Assembly (NCBI GenBank): GCA_964438675.1
Contig: CAYTKJ010000001.1
Location: 1-48,019 of the forward strand
Reading direction: 5' to 3'
Origin: an uncultured Candidatus Saccharibacteria bacterium
GTDB taxonomy: Bacteria; Patescibacteriota; Minisyncoccia; Phycocordibacterales; Phycocordibacteraceae
DNA: 48,019 bases
The number at the start of each line of letters is the position of its first letter. Within the stretch, counting starts at the first letter, position 1. This document shows positions 12,863-17,378 of the stretch, in pieces. The position numbers were made by a program, and so were the translations under genes. The notes under the pieces are model-generated. The model saw only the letters and a list, made by a program, of their open reading frames with translations. It made no database searches and was not told the origin of the DNA.

Positions 12863-13702
12863 TCACAATTTAGAGCGAATGAGAAGGAAGTGTGGGAATT
12901 CGGACTCGAAACCTACGTTCGAAGAGTACACCTCCTTGAGATCTGAGATCATAAACCTTGCGTCCTTTAGTGCCGATGCATACGAGTCAAGTGGACGGTG
13001 GTAAAAAAAGCTCGTGACTTGTGCACCGCCAGTGCGCTGCGGAAGTGGAATGGTTATTTCTGTTTTGTATCGATCAACGCGTCTATAAGTAAGCTTACGT
13101 CCTGCATCAGTCCCCCACCCGCTCTGGCGAGGAATACGAAATGCTGGATGCACCATAAAAATCAGAAGCTCCCCACTCGGTTTTAGTAAGAGCGCTGCAT
13201 TTTTTATCGCATCGCGATGATTGTCGATATCTTGTATCGAAAACATAAACACCGCGCGATCAAATTTCTCTTTAACCGGAAGTGCGATGCCGCCTGGACG
13301 TGCCACGTCAGAAACAAAAAACTGTGCCTTGCTTCCCCCATTCTTCTTTGCTTCGCGGATCATGCTCGGTGACTTATCGACACCGACATAGTCTACTCCT
13401 GCCTTTTCCACCTGTTCGCGGAGCGCTCCGAGCCCACAACCGAGCTCAACTAAGCGCATACCTCTTTTCAGCTCCAGCGCCTTAAGAATTTCAGGTATAG
13501 CGTAGCGCTTATGAAAGTTTGATCCTCCGCCTGCCCAGCCCGCATACCAGGGTGCCATCTCGTCCCAACCCGTCTTAACAGTGCGACGCTCTTCCTTCTC
13601 TACCGGTCCATAGACACCGCGCGCTCCGCGGGCCATAGGACTCGGCCCGTTTTTACCCGGGCCTCTGTTGTCGAATCGGCCCCTGCGCTTTATCCCTGCC
13701 AT
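12863..13702 (-). CDS. Class I SAM-dependent methyltransferase with an Arg/Gly-rich N-terminal tail
   Basis: Motif I LVELGCGLGAL followed by VGVDKSPSMI. I placed the start at MAGIKRR rather than the track start, because the longer version would overlap the divergent gene. Ends with TGA. Confidence 0.7.
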   Translation of the reverse strand: MAGIKRRGRFDNRGPGKNGPSPMARGARGVYGPVEKEERRTVKTGWDEMAPWYAGWAGGGSNFHKRYAIPEILKALELKRGMRLVELGCGLGALREQVEKAGVDYVGVDKSPSMIREAKKNGGSKAQFFVSDVARPGGIALPVKEKFDRAVFMFSIQDIDNHRDAIKNAALLLKPSGELLIFMVHPAFRIPRQSGWGTDAGRKLTYRRVDRYKTEITIPLPQRTGGAQVTSFFYHRPLDSYASALKDARFMISDLKEVYSSNVGFESEFPHFLLIRSKL

Positions 13703-13721
13703 GCCTTGTATACTAACAGAT

Positions 13722-13988
13722 ATGGGACATAAGCCTATGAATGAGTTGGCGGATGAGATCGCTACATTTAAAGACAGAATCGACATACCTGGCACGTATG
13801 TGCATTACAAAGACGATACGAAAACATACACGACTCGCAAATTTGTAATCATCGAAGCGACCGAGGAGGTGGGTATTGAGTACCAAGCAAACTACGGCCC
13901 GCACCTCACCTTCGTCCGCCCTGTAAAAGAATGGCTCGACATGGTCGAACATAACGGTAAGTCCGTCCCCCGTTTCAGAAAAGCCTAG
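13722..13988 (+). CDS. DUF1653-like small protein
   Basis: GTYVHYKDDTKTYTTRKFVIIEATEEVGIEYQANYG ... FVRPVKEWL fits the DUF1653 pattern as I remember it. The start was chosen at MGHKPM. Confidence 0.55.
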   Translation: MGHKPMNELADEIATFKDRIDIPGTYVHYKDDTKTYTTRKFVIIEATEEVGIEYQANYGPHLTFVRPVKEWLDMVEHNGKSVPRFRKA

Positions 13989-14066: not shown

Positions 14067-14585
14067 CTATTTATCTGCTGTAAATATCTTATTCGCGAGT
14101 TCAGCTTTAGGCCAAAGAGTTATATTATTTGAGTCGAACGTCGAGGAGGAATTTTTATCAGAATTTTGAATGTACCTTCTAATTTTACCAACTAAAACTC
14201 TTGGGTCGCTAGTTGCCCCCTCTTTTAACTGTAAAGTGTGCATTATTTCATTGAGAAGTGCATCATCCTTTACCCAGAGGACAAGCTCAAACGACATGCG
14301 ATTTAGATCTTCATAATAGGTACTTAATTCATTAGTACTTAGAAGTTCCAGCTCGTGACCTCTGTACTTAATCCACCTTGAAAACAGTGCTGCGACACTC
14401 TCTGCCTTCTGTCTTAGTAACTGTTCAAAACGATAATCCTCTAATTTAACTTCATATTCATGGCGAATCGATTGCTCTAGTCGTGCGGCGATCCACTTTA
14501 AGAGCAACCATTGAACTAGACAAAGTAATGCTGCGAGAATGATTGAACCTAGCAAAACTTGTACAAATGTCAGAGAGATAATCAT
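14067..14585 (-). CDS. Hypothetical membrane-anchored protein (AT-rich gene)
   Basis: 172 aa with one N-terminal TM helix followed by a charged helical region. I recognise no motif. It begins 4 nt downstream of folB. Confidence 0.5.
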   Translation of the reverse strand: MIISLTFVQVLLGSIILAALLCLVQWLLLKWIAARLEQSIRHEYEVKLEDYRFEQLLRQKAESVAALFSRWIKYRGHELELLSTNELSTYYEDLNRMSFELVLWVKDDALLNEIMHTLQLKEGATSDPRVLVGKIRRYIQNSDKNSSSTFDSNNITLWPKAELANKIFTADK

Positions 14586-14961: not shown

Positions 14962-16116
14962 ATGGACATCACTATACCGCTAGACGATGAAAAGCGCTTA
15001 CGCGAACACCTCAAGGCTCGTGCGGACGCTGAGGCGCGACGTATGGAGCGCTACCTAGACATGCCCGACCTTTCGCGCACCCCTGGCTCGCCGCTTTATG
15101 AAATATCTGAACGAGTGAAACGCGCGGACGCCTTTAAGGACTTCGACATAATCACCATTCCAGAAATTGTACCTACCGACATTTCGTTTGACCTCTTCGA
15201 CTTCCCTCCCGAGCATCCCGCACGCTCAAAGTCCGACACCTACTACGTGGACGAAAAAAATATCTTACGTACTCACGACACTGTGTTCTGGTACTACTAT
15301 CTTAACGACCCAAAGATTAAAGAACGCATCGCGAAGGGCGATGCTATGGGCGCACTCTGCTACGGCAAAGTGTACCGAAAGGACGAGGTAGACAGTAGAC
15401 ACATGAATGTCTTCCACCAGTTTGGCGGCTGGTACATCGCGCCCGTCTCACAACCAATTGTTCCTGAAGATTTGCACAAAGCACTCGGTGACATTGTGCA
15501 CGCAATCTTTGGCCCTCAGATGAAGTTCCGCATAAATCCTGACAACTTCCCGTACACAGACCCCTCATTCGAAGTGGAGCTTTATGTTAAAGGCACTGCG
15601 GCCGAGGGTCCAGCAAAGGGCGACTGGCTCGAGCTCTTAGGTTCAGGTATGCCAAAGGCTAGTGTGCTTAAGAAAATGGGTGTTGAGGGCTATCACGGCT
15701 GGGCCTTCGGTTTTGGTATTGAGCGACCAGCTATAGCGTCTATGGCGCTACCTGACATTCGCCTACTTTGGTCTACGGACGAGCGCATTAAAAAACAGCT
15801 CGTGCTTGGGCAAACGTACAAGGACGTATCTAAGTTCCCACCTTCTATACGTGATATTTCTTTTGTTGTCCCTAAATCGTTTGTGCCGAATGACTATTTC
15901 GACACCGTGCGCGACATCGCCGGAGATTTGGTAGAGGAGGTGCTCCTTATCGACAAATATGAGAATGATGAAAAGTTCGGAGTCGACAAGATGAGTTATG
16001 CCTATCGCATTAACTACCGATCAATTGAAAAAACCCTTACGAATGAAGTTGTTGAGGCGATTCACAAGCAAGTAGAGGCTGCTACGACAAAAGAGTTTGG
16101 CGCAACGATCCGCTAG
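14962..16116 (+). CDS. Single-chain phenylalanine--tRNA ligase: PheS-type catalytic core fused to a C-terminal FDX-ACB domain (mitochondrial-type layout)
   Basis: Class II motifs EHPARS, YRKDEVDSRHMNVFHQ and GWAFGFGIERPA, then LPDIRLLWSTDERIKKQ and a roughly 95-aa tail SKFPPSIRDISF ... GDLVEEVLLIDKY ... YRINYRSIEKTLTNE. I chose the start at MDITIPL because the longer track ORF overlaps folB. Confidence 0.85.
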   Translation: MDITIPLDDEKRLREHLKARADAEARRMERYLDMPDLSRTPGSPLYEISERVKRADAFKDFDIITIPEIVPTDISFDLFDFPPEHPARSKSDTYYVDEKNILRTHDTVFWYYYLNDPKIKERIAKGDAMGALCYGKVYRKDEVDSRHMNVFHQFGGWYIAPVSQPIVPEDLHKALGDIVHAIFGPQMKFRINPDNFPYTDPSFEVELYVKGTAAEGPAKGDWLELLGSGMPKASVLKKMGVEGYHGWAFGFGIERPAIASMALPDIRLLWSTDERIKKQLVLGQTYKDVSKFPPSIRDISFVVPKSFVPNDYFDTVRDIAGDLVEEVLLIDKYENDEKFGVDKMSYAYRINYRSIEKTLTNEVVEAIHKQVEAATTKEFGATIR

Positions 16117-16148: not shown

Positions 16149-17378
16149 ATGACCGAGGCAGCTTTGTATGTGACGCTATTTCTGGCGCTCTACTTCCAGG
16201 TGTTCGCACTCCTCACCTTTCTTTCGCGTGACGCCCGTTCACGTAGAGAAAAAAACCGCCTCGAAAGCAACTTTCCTAAAACTGCAGTTATTGTCCCGTG
16301 CTGGAACGAAGGCACCACTATCGGCGGCACCGTGGCCTCACTCCTTGCTCTCGACTACCCTGCTGACAAACTAGAAATTATTTTAGTAAACGATGGCTCG
16401 ACAGACAACACGCGTGAAGTGATGGACTCGTACGCAGAGCATCCATCAATAACGATTATCCATAAAGAAAACGGGGGTAAACACTCTGCAGTAAACCTTG
16501 GCATTCAGAAAACTGACGCGGAGTTTATCGGCTGTCTCGATGCCGACTCGTTTGTCCACCCAAGCGCACTTAAAGAAGTGCTGGCGCACTTTGATGACCC
16601 ACAGGTCGGTGCAGTTACCGCATCTATGACCGTCCACGAGCCTAAAAACATGTTGCAGGAAATGCAGTACGCCGAGTACCTTGCAGGTGTGGCACTTCGT
16701 CACATTCTCGCAGCAGTAAACGGTCTCTATGTTACGCCTGGCCCATTTTCTTTCTACAGAAAGTCTATTTTGGAGAAAGTAGGACATTTCCGTCACGGGC
16801 ACCAGACCGAAGACATGGAGATGGCGATGCGCCTCCAAAAGAACGGCTATAAGATCGAGAACGCTCCACGCGCGCAAGTATTTACTAAGGCCCCGCACAC
16901 CGTCTGGGGACTAATAAAGCAGCGTACCCGCTGGACGTCTGGCTTTATGCGTAACTCGTACGACTACCGAGGTCTTATTTTGAACCCTCGCCACGGCGTT
17001 TTGGGTCTCCTCGTCATGCCACTCGGTATACTGGCACTCATCGCAGGTATGGGGCTTTTCGTGCTCACAGTTGCTGACGCCGCTAGGCTTATCGCTACCG
17101 CTATCGCAACGCAAGGAGATGTTCCGTGGTCATTTGCGTTTTCACTTCCATCGTTTGACTGGTTTTACGTCCCAGTAACAGGTATCTTTGCACTCGGCAT
17201 AGTAGGTATTGCAGTGGTAACAACTACTATGTATATTGGAAAACGTATTTCTGGTTCGACGAAGCCCATCGCGCGCGACATTGTCTGGTACTTAGTAATT
17301 TACTCACTCATTGCCCCATTCTGGCTTTTTCGCTCGACTGCACACGTTGCTCTCGGGGTTAGAAATGCCTGGCGATAA
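16149..17378 (+). CDS. Processive family-2 glycosyltransferase (IcaA/PgaC/NodC-like membrane synthase)
   Basis: VIVPCWNEG, LVNDGSTDNT, LDADS, TEDMEM and the QRTRW (QxxRW) motif, with N- and C-terminal TM helices. 409 aa. Confidence 0.85.
   Translation: MTEAALYVTLFLALYFQVFALLTFLSRDARSRREKNRLESNFPKTAVIVPCWNEGTTIGGTVASLLALDYPADKLEIILVNDGSTDNTREVMDSYAEHPSITIIHKENGGKHSAVNLGIQKTDAEFIGCLDADSFVHPSALKEVLAHFDDPQVGAVTASMTVHEPKNMLQEMQYAEYLAGVALRHILAAVNGLYVTPGPFSFYRKSILEKVGHFRHGHQTEDMEMAMRLQKNGYKIENAPRAQVFTKAPHTVWGLIKQRTRWTSGFMRNSYDYRGLILNPRHGVLGLLVMPLGILALIAGMGLFVLTVADAARLIATAIATQGDVPWSFAFSLPSFDWFYVPVTGIFALGIVGIAVVTTTMYIGKRISGSTKPIARDIVWYLVIYSLIAPFWLFRSTAHVALGVRNAWR

What the first reader, a model, noticed from the sequence alone, without database searches (positions are those of the whole stretch)
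14962..16116. Single-chain, mitochondrial-type phenylalanyl-tRNA synthetase in a bacterium
Canonical bacterial PheRS is an (alpha-beta)2 enzyme. PheS ends shortly after class II motif 3, and the FDX-ACB (B8) anticodon-binding domain is at the C-terminus of PheT. Here one 384-aa ORF carries the PheS catalytic core (EHPARS, YRKDEVDSRHMNVFHQ, GWAFGFGIERPA) with only a short N-terminal region. It is followed by LPDIRLLWSTDERIKKQL and a roughly 95-aa tail SKFPPSIRDISFVVP...DYFDTVRDIAGDLVEEVLLIDKYEN...MSYAYRINYRSIEKTLTNEVVEAIH. From my recollection of human FARS2 (IPDIRLFW..DERFLKQF; SKYPAVINDISFWLP; GDLVEKVDLIDKF; YRITYRHMERTLSQREV) the match is close along the whole C-terminal half. This would be the monomeric organellar architecture, in a compact bacterial genome.
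Basis: partly seen in the sequence, partly recalled or inferred. Interest (0 to 1): 0.6.

Follow-up and report, generated by a model that had tools for sequence, protein, structure and literature searches.

The report
Single-chain PheRS replacing bacterial pheS-pheT
This tiny-genome (Patescibacteria) bacterium charges tRNA-Phe with a one-piece, proofreading-free enzyme built like the mitochondrial one. Textbooks say all bacteria use a two-subunit enzyme instead, and in related species the one-piece gene sits exactly where the two-subunit genes normally lie.

Summary
The observation and the reading both hold. ORF 14962-16116 (+) encodes 384 aa: a PheS class II catalytic core (residues 44-279) fused to an FDX-ACB anticodon-binding domain (290-384). 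Its best sequence and fold match is human mitochondrial PheRS.

The 537-kb genome is 97% complete. It has one tRNA-Phe(GAA), no pheT, no B3_4 editing domain, no B5 domain and no second PheS.

In 401 genomes of the phylum, 26 (10 families) carry this fused gene. They are exactly the genomes that lack PheT.

In three pairs of species from one genus, the fused gene lies between the same flanking genes as pheS-pheT in the other species. In one pair it is inverted.

In trees, all fused enzymes form one clade, apart from canonical PheS plus PheT-B8. This holds for the joined alignment and for each domain alone. The Patescibacteria enzymes are sister to the organellar and giant-virus enzymes, not nested among them.

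The protein misses the curated cut-offs of pheS_mito, pheS and SrmL.

No paper in the searchable library describes a bacterial monomeric PheRS.

This scan has already noted the same enzyme on other DNA (165 notes). This window is therefore another member of a recurrent family that appears undescribed in the literature.

The parts
14962..16116 (+). Complete gene for the single-chain phenylalanyl-tRNA synthetase (384 aa plus stop)
   Evidence: ORF list and translation. Pfam tRNA-synt_2d plus FDX-ACB. It is the only PheS-like gene in the genome.
14962..15090 (+). N-terminal extension of about 43 residues. The model shows two short helices (8-19, 23-33). It is specific to the Patescibacteria clade and replaces the long coiled coil of canonical PheS.
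   Evidence: Secondary structure of the AF2 model. The alignment with vertebrate enzymes shows no counterpart.
15091..15798 (+). Class II catalytic module (residues 44-279), with motif 1 region HPAR, motif 2 and motif 3
   Evidence: PF01409, E 2e-47. Residues universal to fused and canonical PheS are kept: H85, R88, R139, H147, F151, Q153, F196, P197, E204, A248, G250, G252, R255.
15373..15420 (+). Motif 2, YRKDEVDSRHMNVFHQ (residues 138-153), with the ATP-binding arginine R139
   Evidence: Read from the sequence. R139, H147, F151 and Q153 are invariant across 100 fused and canonical sequences.
15697..15732 (+). Motif 3, GWAFGFGIERPA (residues 246-257), with R255 and the specificity alanine A248. 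W247 is a signature of fused enzymes (canonical PheS has F).
   Evidence: W247 occurs in 100% of Patescibacteria fused rows and 84% of organellar/viral rows. Canonical rows have F in 93%.
15799..15828 (+). Hinge or linker between the two domains (residues 280-289)
   Evidence: Lies between the two Pfam domains. It corresponds to the hinge of human mtPheRS in the alignment.
15829..16113 (+). FDX-ACB (B8-type) anticodon-binding domain (residues 290-384)
   Evidence: PF03147, positions 1-94 of 94, E 7e-22. Scores 77-78 bits with both pheS_mito and the pheT C-terminus. The model has the beta-alpha-beta-beta-alpha fold elements.
16149..17378 (+). Context only: family-2 glycosyltransferase gene next to the synthetase gene. 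A homologue also abuts pheS in same-order relatives.
   Evidence: Pfam Glyco_tranf_2_3. tblastn finds GT2 homologues (35-38% identity) beside pheS in G178, G337 and G211.

Best explanation
The gene encodes the organism's only phenylalanyl-tRNA synthetase.

How it works. One 384-residue chain carries the PheS-type class II active site, which makes Phe-AMP and transfers Phe to A76 of tRNA-Phe. A short hinge joins it to a B8/FDX-ACB domain that reads the GAA anticodon. By analogy with human mtPheRS, the enzyme probably rests in a closed form and swings the anticodon domain open when tRNA binds. That motion is inferred, not shown. The beta subunit is missing, and with it the B3/B4 hydrolytic editing site. 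Tyr and meta-Tyr must therefore be excluded at the active site alone, as in mitochondria.

How it arose. The gene belongs to a fused-PheRS lineage that spreads laterally among Patescibacteria (Parcubacteria/Paceibacteria). Where it lands, it displaces pheS-pheT in the same chromosomal slot. It was not made locally by deleting most of pheT.

What is shown and what is inferred. Shown here: the architecture, the fold, conservation of the catalytic residues, absence of any alternative PheRS, exclusivity with pheT, slot replacement and phylogenetic placement. Inferred: catalytic activity, monomeric state, hinge motion and lack of proofreading in vivo.
For: Architecture and fold
- PF01409 plus PF03147 in one ORF.
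- The best PDB sequence hit is human mtPheRS, E 1e-49.
- The AF2 model has pLDDT 86.5 and pTM 0.84. Foldseek places it on 5mgv/3cmq at E 2e-34, TM 0.77/0.73 over about 395 columns. Bacterial PheS covers only the catalytic half (TMq about 0.53).
- All residues universal to PheS active sites are kept.

Sole enzyme
- The own genome is 537 kb and 97.4% complete. Its only TIGR00472 hits are this ORF's C-terminus and a 108-aa tRNA_bind protein.
- The only strong PF01409 hit is this ORF. The two weak hits are a 409-aa protein with HisRS motifs and a 489-aa protein with LysRS motifs.
- There is no B3_4 domain, no B5 domain and no Dtd.
- One tRNA-Phe(GAA) with A73 is present.

Population level
- Of 401 genomes of the phylum, 26 carry the fused gene at E <= 1e-55.
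- These are the 25 genomes whose only pheT signal is an FDX-ACB-sized hit, plus G006. G006's extra hit is a stand-alone B2-like domain.
- 317 of the others have PheT above its cut-off.

Replacement in place
- In three same-genus pairs (G361/G387, G358/G332, G284/G256) the flanks of the fused gene match the flanks of pheS-pheT at 57-88% amino-acid identity.
- In G284 the fused gene is inverted relative to those flanks.

Origin
- IQ-TREE (LG+C20, 100 rows x 315 columns) puts all 71 fused rows in one clade (100/100, stem 0.93). They are separate from 29 canonical PheS+B8 rows drawn from Patescibacteria and 16 other named bacteria.
- The same split appears with the catalytic domain alone (SH-aLRT 95) and with FDX-ACB alone (72).
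- An AU test rejects grouping the fused Patescibacteria enzymes with the phylum's canonical enzymes (delta lnL 92, p 2e-7).
- The window's enzyme groups (100/98) with enzymes of other classes, not with its same-order or same-class kin.
Against: - There is no biochemical or expression evidence.
- The protein is below the curated cut-off of every NCBIfam equivalog (pheS_mito 218.8/258, SrmL 199/300, pheS 142/237). NCBI records name relatives 'hypothetical protein'.
- The genome is a 26-contig assembly, so a pheS-pheT pair in a gap cannot be excluded for this genome alone.
- An Oligoflexia MAG carries a related fused gene alongside a normal PheT. The fused form is therefore not always the sole enzyme.
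- The canonical sample in the trees lacks Alphaproteobacteria, Actinomycetota, Bacteroidota and an archaeal outgroup.
- Long-branch attraction between the two fused clades is possible.
- The AU group was named after the tree had been seen.
Confidence: 0.85

Rival explanations
1. The ORF is an accessory PheS-like ligase of unknown function, like the 'mystery ligase' SrmL or the extra copy in the Oligoflexia MAG. Under this reading the true pheS-pheT lies in an unassembled part of the genome.
For: SrmL (NF051887) is the second-best NCBIfam model, at 199 bits, and shares the same two-domain layout. A 3.4-Mb Oligoflexia MAG has a related fused gene plus a full PheT at 586 bits. The assembly has 26 contigs.
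Against: The SrmL score is far below its cut-off of 300. The genome is 97.4% complete, yet lacks pheT, B3_4, B5 and any second PheS. The same absence holds in all 26 fused-gene genomes of 401 sampled, most of them 98-100% complete. In three genera the fused gene occupies the pheS-pheT slot itself. All PheS active-site residues are intact.
Confidence: 0.05
2. The fusion arose locally and independently of the mitochondrial one. An in-frame deletion in the organism's own pheS-pheT operon would have joined the end of pheS to the last domain (B8) of the adjacent pheT.
For: pheS and pheT are adjacent and co-directional in relatives, so a single deletion could produce this architecture. The fused gene lies in the pheS-pheT slot. 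Same-order relatives already have trimmed subunits: PheS of 247-279 aa and PheT of about 600-645 aa. In the FDX-only tree the nearest canonical rows are same-class Patescibacteria, with weak support.
Against: The catalytic domain is only 25-36% identical to canonical PheS of the phylum, including the congeners. Both domains place all fused enzymes on one long shared stem, away from canonical ones. The AU test rejects a fused-plus-canonical Patescibacteria clade (p 2e-7). In G284 the fused gene is inverted within the slot, which a deletion cannot produce. Six signature residues are shared with organellar and viral enzymes and are absent from canonical PheS/PheT.
Confidence: 0.05
3. The gene is a recent import from a eukaryote or a giant virus (a mitochondrial-type gene captured by a symbiont), or it is eukaryotic contamination of the bin.
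For: The best PDB and NCBIfam matches are mitochondrial. Giant viruses such as Yasminevirus, and virus-like contigs of 340-494 kb, carry fused PheRS genes.
Against: Identity to vertebrate enzymes is only 34-37%, with clade-specific insertions and deletions. The Patescibacteria enzymes form their own clade of thousands of sequences on a stem of 0.33. They are sister to the organellar/viral clade, not inside it. The gene lies on a 62-kb contig among ordinary bacterial genes of matching GC content.
Confidence: 0.03

Closest known systems
Mitochondrial/organellar monomeric PheRS (human FARS2, PDB 3CMQ closed and 3TUP open with tRNA; yeast MSF1; 'PheRS-M' of AARS Online; NCBIfam TIGR00469)
   Same: Both have the same two-domain chain: a PheS catalytic module, then a hinge, then a B8/FDX-ACB domain. 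Neither has a beta subunit or an editing domain. The whole chain superposes (TM 0.77/0.73). Signature residues such as W247 are shared. The two share a stem in trees of both domains.
   Different: Identity is only 34-37%. The window protein has no targeting peptide. It lacks the insertion of about 33 residues after motif 2, and has its own insertions at about 108-127 and 209-220 plus a 43-residue N-terminal helical hairpin. It scores 218.8 bits against the cut-off of 258.35. It forms a sister clade rather than a member. It serves a bacterial cytoplasm as the sole PheRS.
Canonical bacterial (alpha-beta)2 PheRS: PheS (TIGR00468) plus PheT (TIGR00472), e.g. Thermus thermophilus 1PYS/2IY5 and E. 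coli 3PCO
   Same: The catalytic motifs and Phe-pocket residues are the same. The FDX-ACB domain is homologous to B8 at the end of PheT. The cognate tRNA has the same features, GAA anticodon and A73.
   Different: The window protein is one chain instead of two genes. It has no N-terminal coiled coil and none of B1-B7, so no B3/B4 editing site and no B2 or B5 domain. It shares 25-36% identity with PheS of the same phylum. It is separated from all canonical rows by a stem of 0.93. [quoted passage not shown]
SrmL, 'PheS-related mystery ligase' (NCBIfam NF051887)
   Same: The profile aligns along both domains (positions 32-346 of 349), so the layout is the same fused one.
   Different: The score is 199 against a cut-off of 300. 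According to earlier notes of this scan, SrmL proteins coexist with a normal PheRS and have no known function. The window protein is the only PheRS in its genome. No SrmL sequences were available for the trees.
Fused PheRS of giant viruses and huge virus-like contigs (Yasminevirus sp. GU-2018 VBB18274.1; metagenome proteins P0394 and P0319)
   Same: They are short chains of 338-426 aa with the same two domains and no presequence.
   Different: They pass the pheS_mito cut-off at 268-310 bits. They branch with the eukaryotic enzymes, not with the Patescibacteria clade.

Membership tests
Monomeric organellar PheRS (PheRS-M, TIGR00469 pheS_mito) | PheS catalytic module and FDX-ACB/B8 domain in one polypeptide | tested here: met
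   PF01409 at 44-279 and PF03147 at 290-384 in one ORF.
Monomeric organellar PheRS (PheRS-M, TIGR00469 pheS_mito) | Score at or above the curated equivalog cut-off (258.35 bits) | tested here: not met
   218.8 bits. Viral and metagenome relatives reach 268-310 bits and Latimeria reaches 465.
Monomeric organellar PheRS (PheRS-M, TIGR00469 pheS_mito) | Whole-chain fold like human mtPheRS | tested here: met
   Foldseek E 2e-34, TM 0.77/0.73, rmsd about 3.1 Å to 3cmq/5mgv.
Monomeric organellar PheRS (PheRS-M, TIGR00469 pheS_mito) | Branches inside the organellar clade | tested here: not met
   It forms a sister clade (100/99) to the organellar and viral clade (100/98).
Monomeric organellar PheRS (PheRS-M, TIGR00469 pheS_mito) | Active as a monomer, with a closed-to-open hinge motion on tRNA binding | not testable with these tools
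   The model is in the closed form only (TM 0.57 to the open form 3tup).
Monomeric organellar PheRS (PheRS-M, TIGR00469 pheS_mito) | No beta subunit or editing domain in the same translation system | tested here: met
   No pheT, B3_4 or B5 in the genome.
Bacterial PheS alpha subunit (TIGR00468) | Score at or above the cut-off (237.45 bits) | tested here: not met
   142.5 bits for the whole protein and 144 for the catalytic part alone.
Bacterial PheS alpha subunit (TIGR00468) | Partner PheT encoded in the genome, usually adjacent | tested here: not met
   No PheT in the genome. The downstream gene is a glycosyltransferase.
Bacterial PheS alpha subunit (TIGR00468) | Class II motifs 2 and 3 and the Phe-pocket residues | tested here: met
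   R139, H147, F151, Q153, F196, P197, E204, A248, G250, G252 and R255 are conserved.
SrmL, PheS-related mystery ligase (NF051887) | Score at or above the cut-off (300 bits) | tested here: not met
   199.4 bits.
SrmL, PheS-related mystery ligase (NF051887) | Occurs in addition to a normal PheRS | tested here: not met
   It is the only PheRS candidate in this genome and in 25 other genomes.
Phenylalanyl-tRNA synthetase (function) | Charges tRNA-Phe with phenylalanine | not testable with these tools
   Inferred from the intact active site, the cognate tRNA-Phe(GAA) in the genome and the absence of any alternative.

The most novel reading that the evidence does not exclude
The fusion of PheS with the B8 domain happened once. 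On this reading the Patescibacteria enzymes are the surviving bacterial branch of the lineage that also gave eukaryotes their organellar PheRS and giant viruses theirs. The mitochondrial enzyme would then have been inherited or captured ready-made from a bacterial or mobile fused gene. It would not have been built in the early eukaryote by trimming an alphaproteobacterial pheS-pheT. The evidence does not exclude this. Both domains independently put all fused enzymes on one long stem. The bacterial clade is sister to the organellar/viral clade, not nested within it. The direction of transfer (bacterium to eukaryote, or the reverse) and the possibility of long-branch attraction remain open.
Probability: 0.35. 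Interest if true: 0.8.

Novelty: new variant of a known kind. Interest (0 to 1): 0.6.

Why it matters
PheRS is the textbook example of an obligatory (alpha-beta)2 synthetase in bacteria. [quoted passage not shown]

A whole group of bacteria living on a 384-residue, editing-free PheRS has several consequences.

- It shows that the minimal enzyme suffices for a cellular proteome.
- It gives a bacterial model of FARS2-type enzymes that can be studied in the laboratory.
- It bears on translation fidelity in ultra-small symbionts, which have no B3/B4 editing site and no Dtd.
- It explains why pheT, a standard marker gene, is missing from these genomes. NCBI records label the real synthetase 'hypothetical protein'.
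- It makes the unresolved origin of mitochondrial PheRS testable with bacterial sequences.

Tried and rejected
- Literature. Eight full-text searches found no paper on a bacterial or CPR monomeric PheRS. The hits treat the monomer as mitochondrial only or mention only that CPR PheT often lacks B2. The library does not cover subscription journals, so this is absence in the searched set only.
- A loose IUPAC pattern for tRNA-Phe returned chance matches only. Loci L084-L113 are worthless.
- tblastn of the protein against 50,697 phage records found no fused gene covering at least 80% of the query. It found host pheS contamination and one partial hit in a 635-kb uncultured phage.
- The third cluster look-up returned no organism names. 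Names came only.
- I first suspected that the odd tRNA-Phe elbow (A18/G55) was an adaptation to the fused enzyme. I rejected this. Fused-enzyme genomes of families f32 and f118 have a normal G18G19/T54-T55-C56 elbow, and a tRNA-Met of the own genome shares the oddity.
- SrmL membership and a recent eukaryotic origin were considered and rejected (see Rival explanations).
- A promoter and terminator scan around the gene gave nothing above chance.

Full report
**Observation**

The window holds an ORF on the + strand from ATG 14962 to the stop at 16114-16116, 384 aa.

Pfam finds the PheS-type class II core (PF01409, residues 44-279, E 2e-47). It also finds a complete ferredoxin-fold anticodon-binding domain (PF03147, residues 290-384, profile 1-94 of 94, E 7e-22).

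Against PDB sequences the six best hits are all human mitochondrial PheRS (E about 1e-49). Bacterial PheS chains match only residues about 40-280, and PheT chains match only 280-384.

The start at 14962 is supported. Homologues of 384 aa begin at the same position, and the longer GTG start would overlap the divergent folB gene.

The PDIRLxW...KQ stretch is simply the normal C-terminus of bacterial PheS.

**Is it the cell's PheRS?**

The window is part of a 537-kb, 26-contig Patescibacteria genome rated 97.4% complete.

- The pheT model hits only this ORF's C-terminus and a 108-aa stand-alone tRNA_bind protein.
- PF01409 hits only this ORF strongly. The two weak hits carry HisRS and LysRS motifs.
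- There is no B3_4 editing domain, no B5 domain and no D-Tyr-tRNA deacylase.
- The genome encodes one tRNA-Phe(GAA) with A73.
- All residues that are universal in an alignment of 71 fused and 29 canonical enzymes are kept. These include the motif 2 and motif 3 arginines, the FPxxxPS Phe-pocket segment and the specificity alanine A248.

**Fold**

An AlphaFold2 model (pLDDT 86.5, pTM 0.84) superposes over the whole chain on closed human mtPheRS: 5mgv/3cmq, E 2e-34, TM 0.77/0.73, rmsd about 3.1 Å. It fits less well on the tRNA-bound open form (3tup, TM 0.57). It matches bacterial PheS only over the catalytic half.

**Distribution**

More than 6,500 database proteins match. The best 120 all have about 384 aa and the same two domains. 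JGI names them 'PheRS alpha chain'; one is from 'Parcubacteria bacterium C7867-001'. More distant members come from Wolfebacteria, Staskawiczbacteria, Nealsonbacteria, Portnoybacteria and Paceibacterota MAGs, where NCBI calls them 'hypothetical protein'.

In an even sample of 401 genomes of the phylum, 317 have PheT above its curated cut-off. Twenty-six genomes, in 10 families, have the fused gene at E <= 1e-55. They are exactly the genomes whose pheT signal is no more than an FDX-ACB-sized hit, plus G006. G006's extra hit is a stand-alone B2-like domain.

The two states alternate even within genera:

| Genus | Fused gene | Canonical pheS-pheT |
|---|---|---|
| g4 | G284 | G256 |
| g275 | G358 | G332 |
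| g293 | G361 | G387 |

**Replacement in place**

Earlier notes of this scan prompted a comparison of those three pairs. In each pair, the genes flanking the fused gene are the genes that flank pheS on one side and pheT on the other in the congener, at 57-88% amino-acid identity. In G284 the fused gene is inverted relative to the flanks. A deletion inside pheS-pheT cannot produce that inversion.

For the window's own lineage only one side is traceable. A family-2 glycosyltransferase abuts the synthetase gene here and in the congener G143, and a homologue abuts pheS in three same-order relatives.

**Origin**

I aligned five sets of sequences:

- 19 fused Patescibacteria enzymes;
- an Oligoflexia homologue;
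- 48 representatives from a profile search of 1.84 billion cluster representatives;
- 3 vertebrate enzymes;
- 29 canonical PheS catalytic modules, each joined to the B8 domain of its own PheT. Thirteen came from Patescibacteria and 16 from named Bacillota, Gamma- and Deltaproteobacteria-type lineages, Nitrospirota and Melainabacteria.

IQ-TREE (LG+C20+F+G4, 315 columns) puts all fused rows on one side of a branch of length 0.93 (100/100). Inside that clade the Patescibacteria-plus-Oligoflexia clade (100/99) is sister to a clade (100/98) holding the vertebrate enzymes, the other representatives and two groups of short proteins of 338-426 aa.

One short group contains the Yasminevirus (giant virus) PheRS. 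The other contains proteins on virus-like contigs of 340 and 494 kb. These short proteins pass the pheS_mito cut-off. The window protein does not.

The same fused-against-canonical split, and the same two sub-clades, appear with the catalytic columns alone (SH-aLRT 95, stem 0.87) and with the 93 FDX-ACB columns alone (72, stem 0.68). An AU test rejects placing the fused Patescibacteria enzymes with the phylum's canonical enzymes (delta lnL 92, p 2e-7). Six positions (V70, Y94, E206, W247, W270, N310) are shared by both fused clades and are absent from canonical rows.

At profile level neither domain prefers the mitochondrial model. The catalytic part scores pheS 144, pheS_mito 132 and SrmL 150 bits. 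FDX-ACB scores 78 against 77.

Caveats:

- The canonical sample lacks Alphaproteobacteria and several large phyla.
- Most representatives are unnamed.
- The AU group was chosen after the tree had been seen.
- The two fused stems are long.

**Lateral spread**

Within the Patescibacteria clade, the window's enzyme and that of its congener G143 group (100/98) with enzymes of families f32, f118, f93 and f86 from other classes. Their same-order relative G284 and same-class relatives G241 and G350 sit in a different supported clade, and family f32 is split over three places.

The patchy 6.5% occurrence and the slot replacement add to this picture. Together they point to repeated xenologous displacement of pheS-pheT by a mobile fused gene. 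The alternative, vertical inheritance of the fused gene with many losses, fits them less well.

**Outside the phylum**

A 3.4-Mb Oligoflexia MAG has a related fused gene on a contig of ordinary metabolic genes and also a normal PheT. There the fused gene is an extra copy. Its nearest relatives are Patescibacteria enzymes.

**Comparison with what is known**

The architecture is that of PheRS-M (FARS2, MSF1). Reviews state that the heterotetramer is conserved in all known prokaryotes and that the monomer is mitochondrial (PMC3275996; PMC11580382 and PMC10810186). Eight full-text searches found no description of a bacterial monomeric PheRS.

This scan itself has 165 earlier notes on such genes. 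Several follow-ups reached the same reading for other Paceibacteria genomes, so this window is not the first sighting within the scan.

I file it as a new variant of a known kind for these reasons:

- It has the same design as the organellar enzyme and probably the same ancestry.
- It forms a separate bacterial clade.
- It fails the curated cut-offs of all three related NCBIfam families.
- It serves as the only PheRS of a cell.

**Limits**

Activity, monomeric state, hinge motion and fidelity are inferred.

Noticed in passing
own genome, outside the window: contig C14 3829-3904 (-) tRNA-Phe(GAA) and contig C13 7445-7519 (-) tRNA-Met(CAT); also L196 (G143) and L203 (G284): These tRNAs have an unusual elbow. 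The D-loop reads AGTTAGTTA or AGGTAGTTA, with A18 in place of G18. The T-loop reads TGCAAGT or TGCAAAT, with G55 in place of the universal U55. The other 31 tRNAs of the genome are canonical. The same pair of changes occurs in tRNA-Phe of the congener G143 and of the same-order genome G284. It does not occur in fused-PheRS genomes of other families. It therefore looks like a lineage-specific 18/55 covariation, not an adaptation to the enzyme.
   Followed up: partly
L043, L045, L046, L048, L050 (pheS) and L076-L081 (pheT) of same-order genomes G337, G211, G324, G256, G178: Same-order relatives that keep the two-subunit enzyme have a trimmed version. PheS is 247-279 aa and lacks the N-terminal coiled coil (profile match starts at about position 60). 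PheT ORFs are about 600-645 aa (785 in G337), against about 800 in typical bacteria.
   Followed up: partly
L227 and L229 (G345 contig C3, 92428-95827): This is a third arrangement: a stand-alone B2-like tRNA_bind ORF, then pheS, then a PheT that matches profile positions 158-751 only. No FDX-ACB domain was found anywhere in the genome. It is a two-subunit PheRS without the usual anticodon-binding domain.
   Followed up: no
L002 1429-1755 (-) = own genome contig C24; also L228 (G006): A 108-aa stand-alone tRNA_bind (Trbp111/CsaA-like) protein lies next to a ruvX-like gene. In one search, 22 of the 25 fused-only genomes show a second hit to the pheT profile; the own genome's is this tRNA_bind protein and G006's is B2-like (152 bits), the rest were not inspected. 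It may assist tRNA binding in trans, but this is untested, and such genes also occur in genomes with PheT.
   Followed up: partly
L114 10001-11047 (340,874-bp ENA contig) and L115: A 348-aa fused PheRS that passes the pheS_mito cut-off lies on a very large contig. The contig is made mostly of small ORFs without Pfam hits. It also has a phage-type SNF2 helicase (phrog_62), PhageMetallopep and PcfJ, so it is probably a huge phage or another large virus. A relative is the annotated PheRS of the giant virus Yasminevirus sp. GU-2018.
   Followed up: partly
L226 8001-9245 (Oligoflexia MAG GCA_019694465.1, contig JAIBBV010000034.1): A 414-aa fused PheRS homologue (41% identical to the window protein) is annotated 'hypothetical protein' in a 3.4-Mb Oligoflexia MAG that also has a normal PheT. 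Its nearest relatives are Patescibacteria enzymes. This suggests transfer out of that phylum, or a binning error.
   Followed up: partly
canonical PheS of Patescibacteria, e.g. L033, L039 (sequences printed): Canonical PheS proteins of this phylum carry a four-cysteine insertion (CxxC...GCxxC, invariant in alignment A2) between motif 2 and motif 3. It looks like a zinc knuckle. The fused enzymes lack it.
   Followed up: no
window 13668-13988 (+) and 14067-14585 (-): Two small genes lie upstream of the synthetase gene: a DUF1653 protein, and a 172-aa predicted membrane protein without any Pfam match. Neither is conserved next to the fused gene in other genomes examined.
   Followed up: no
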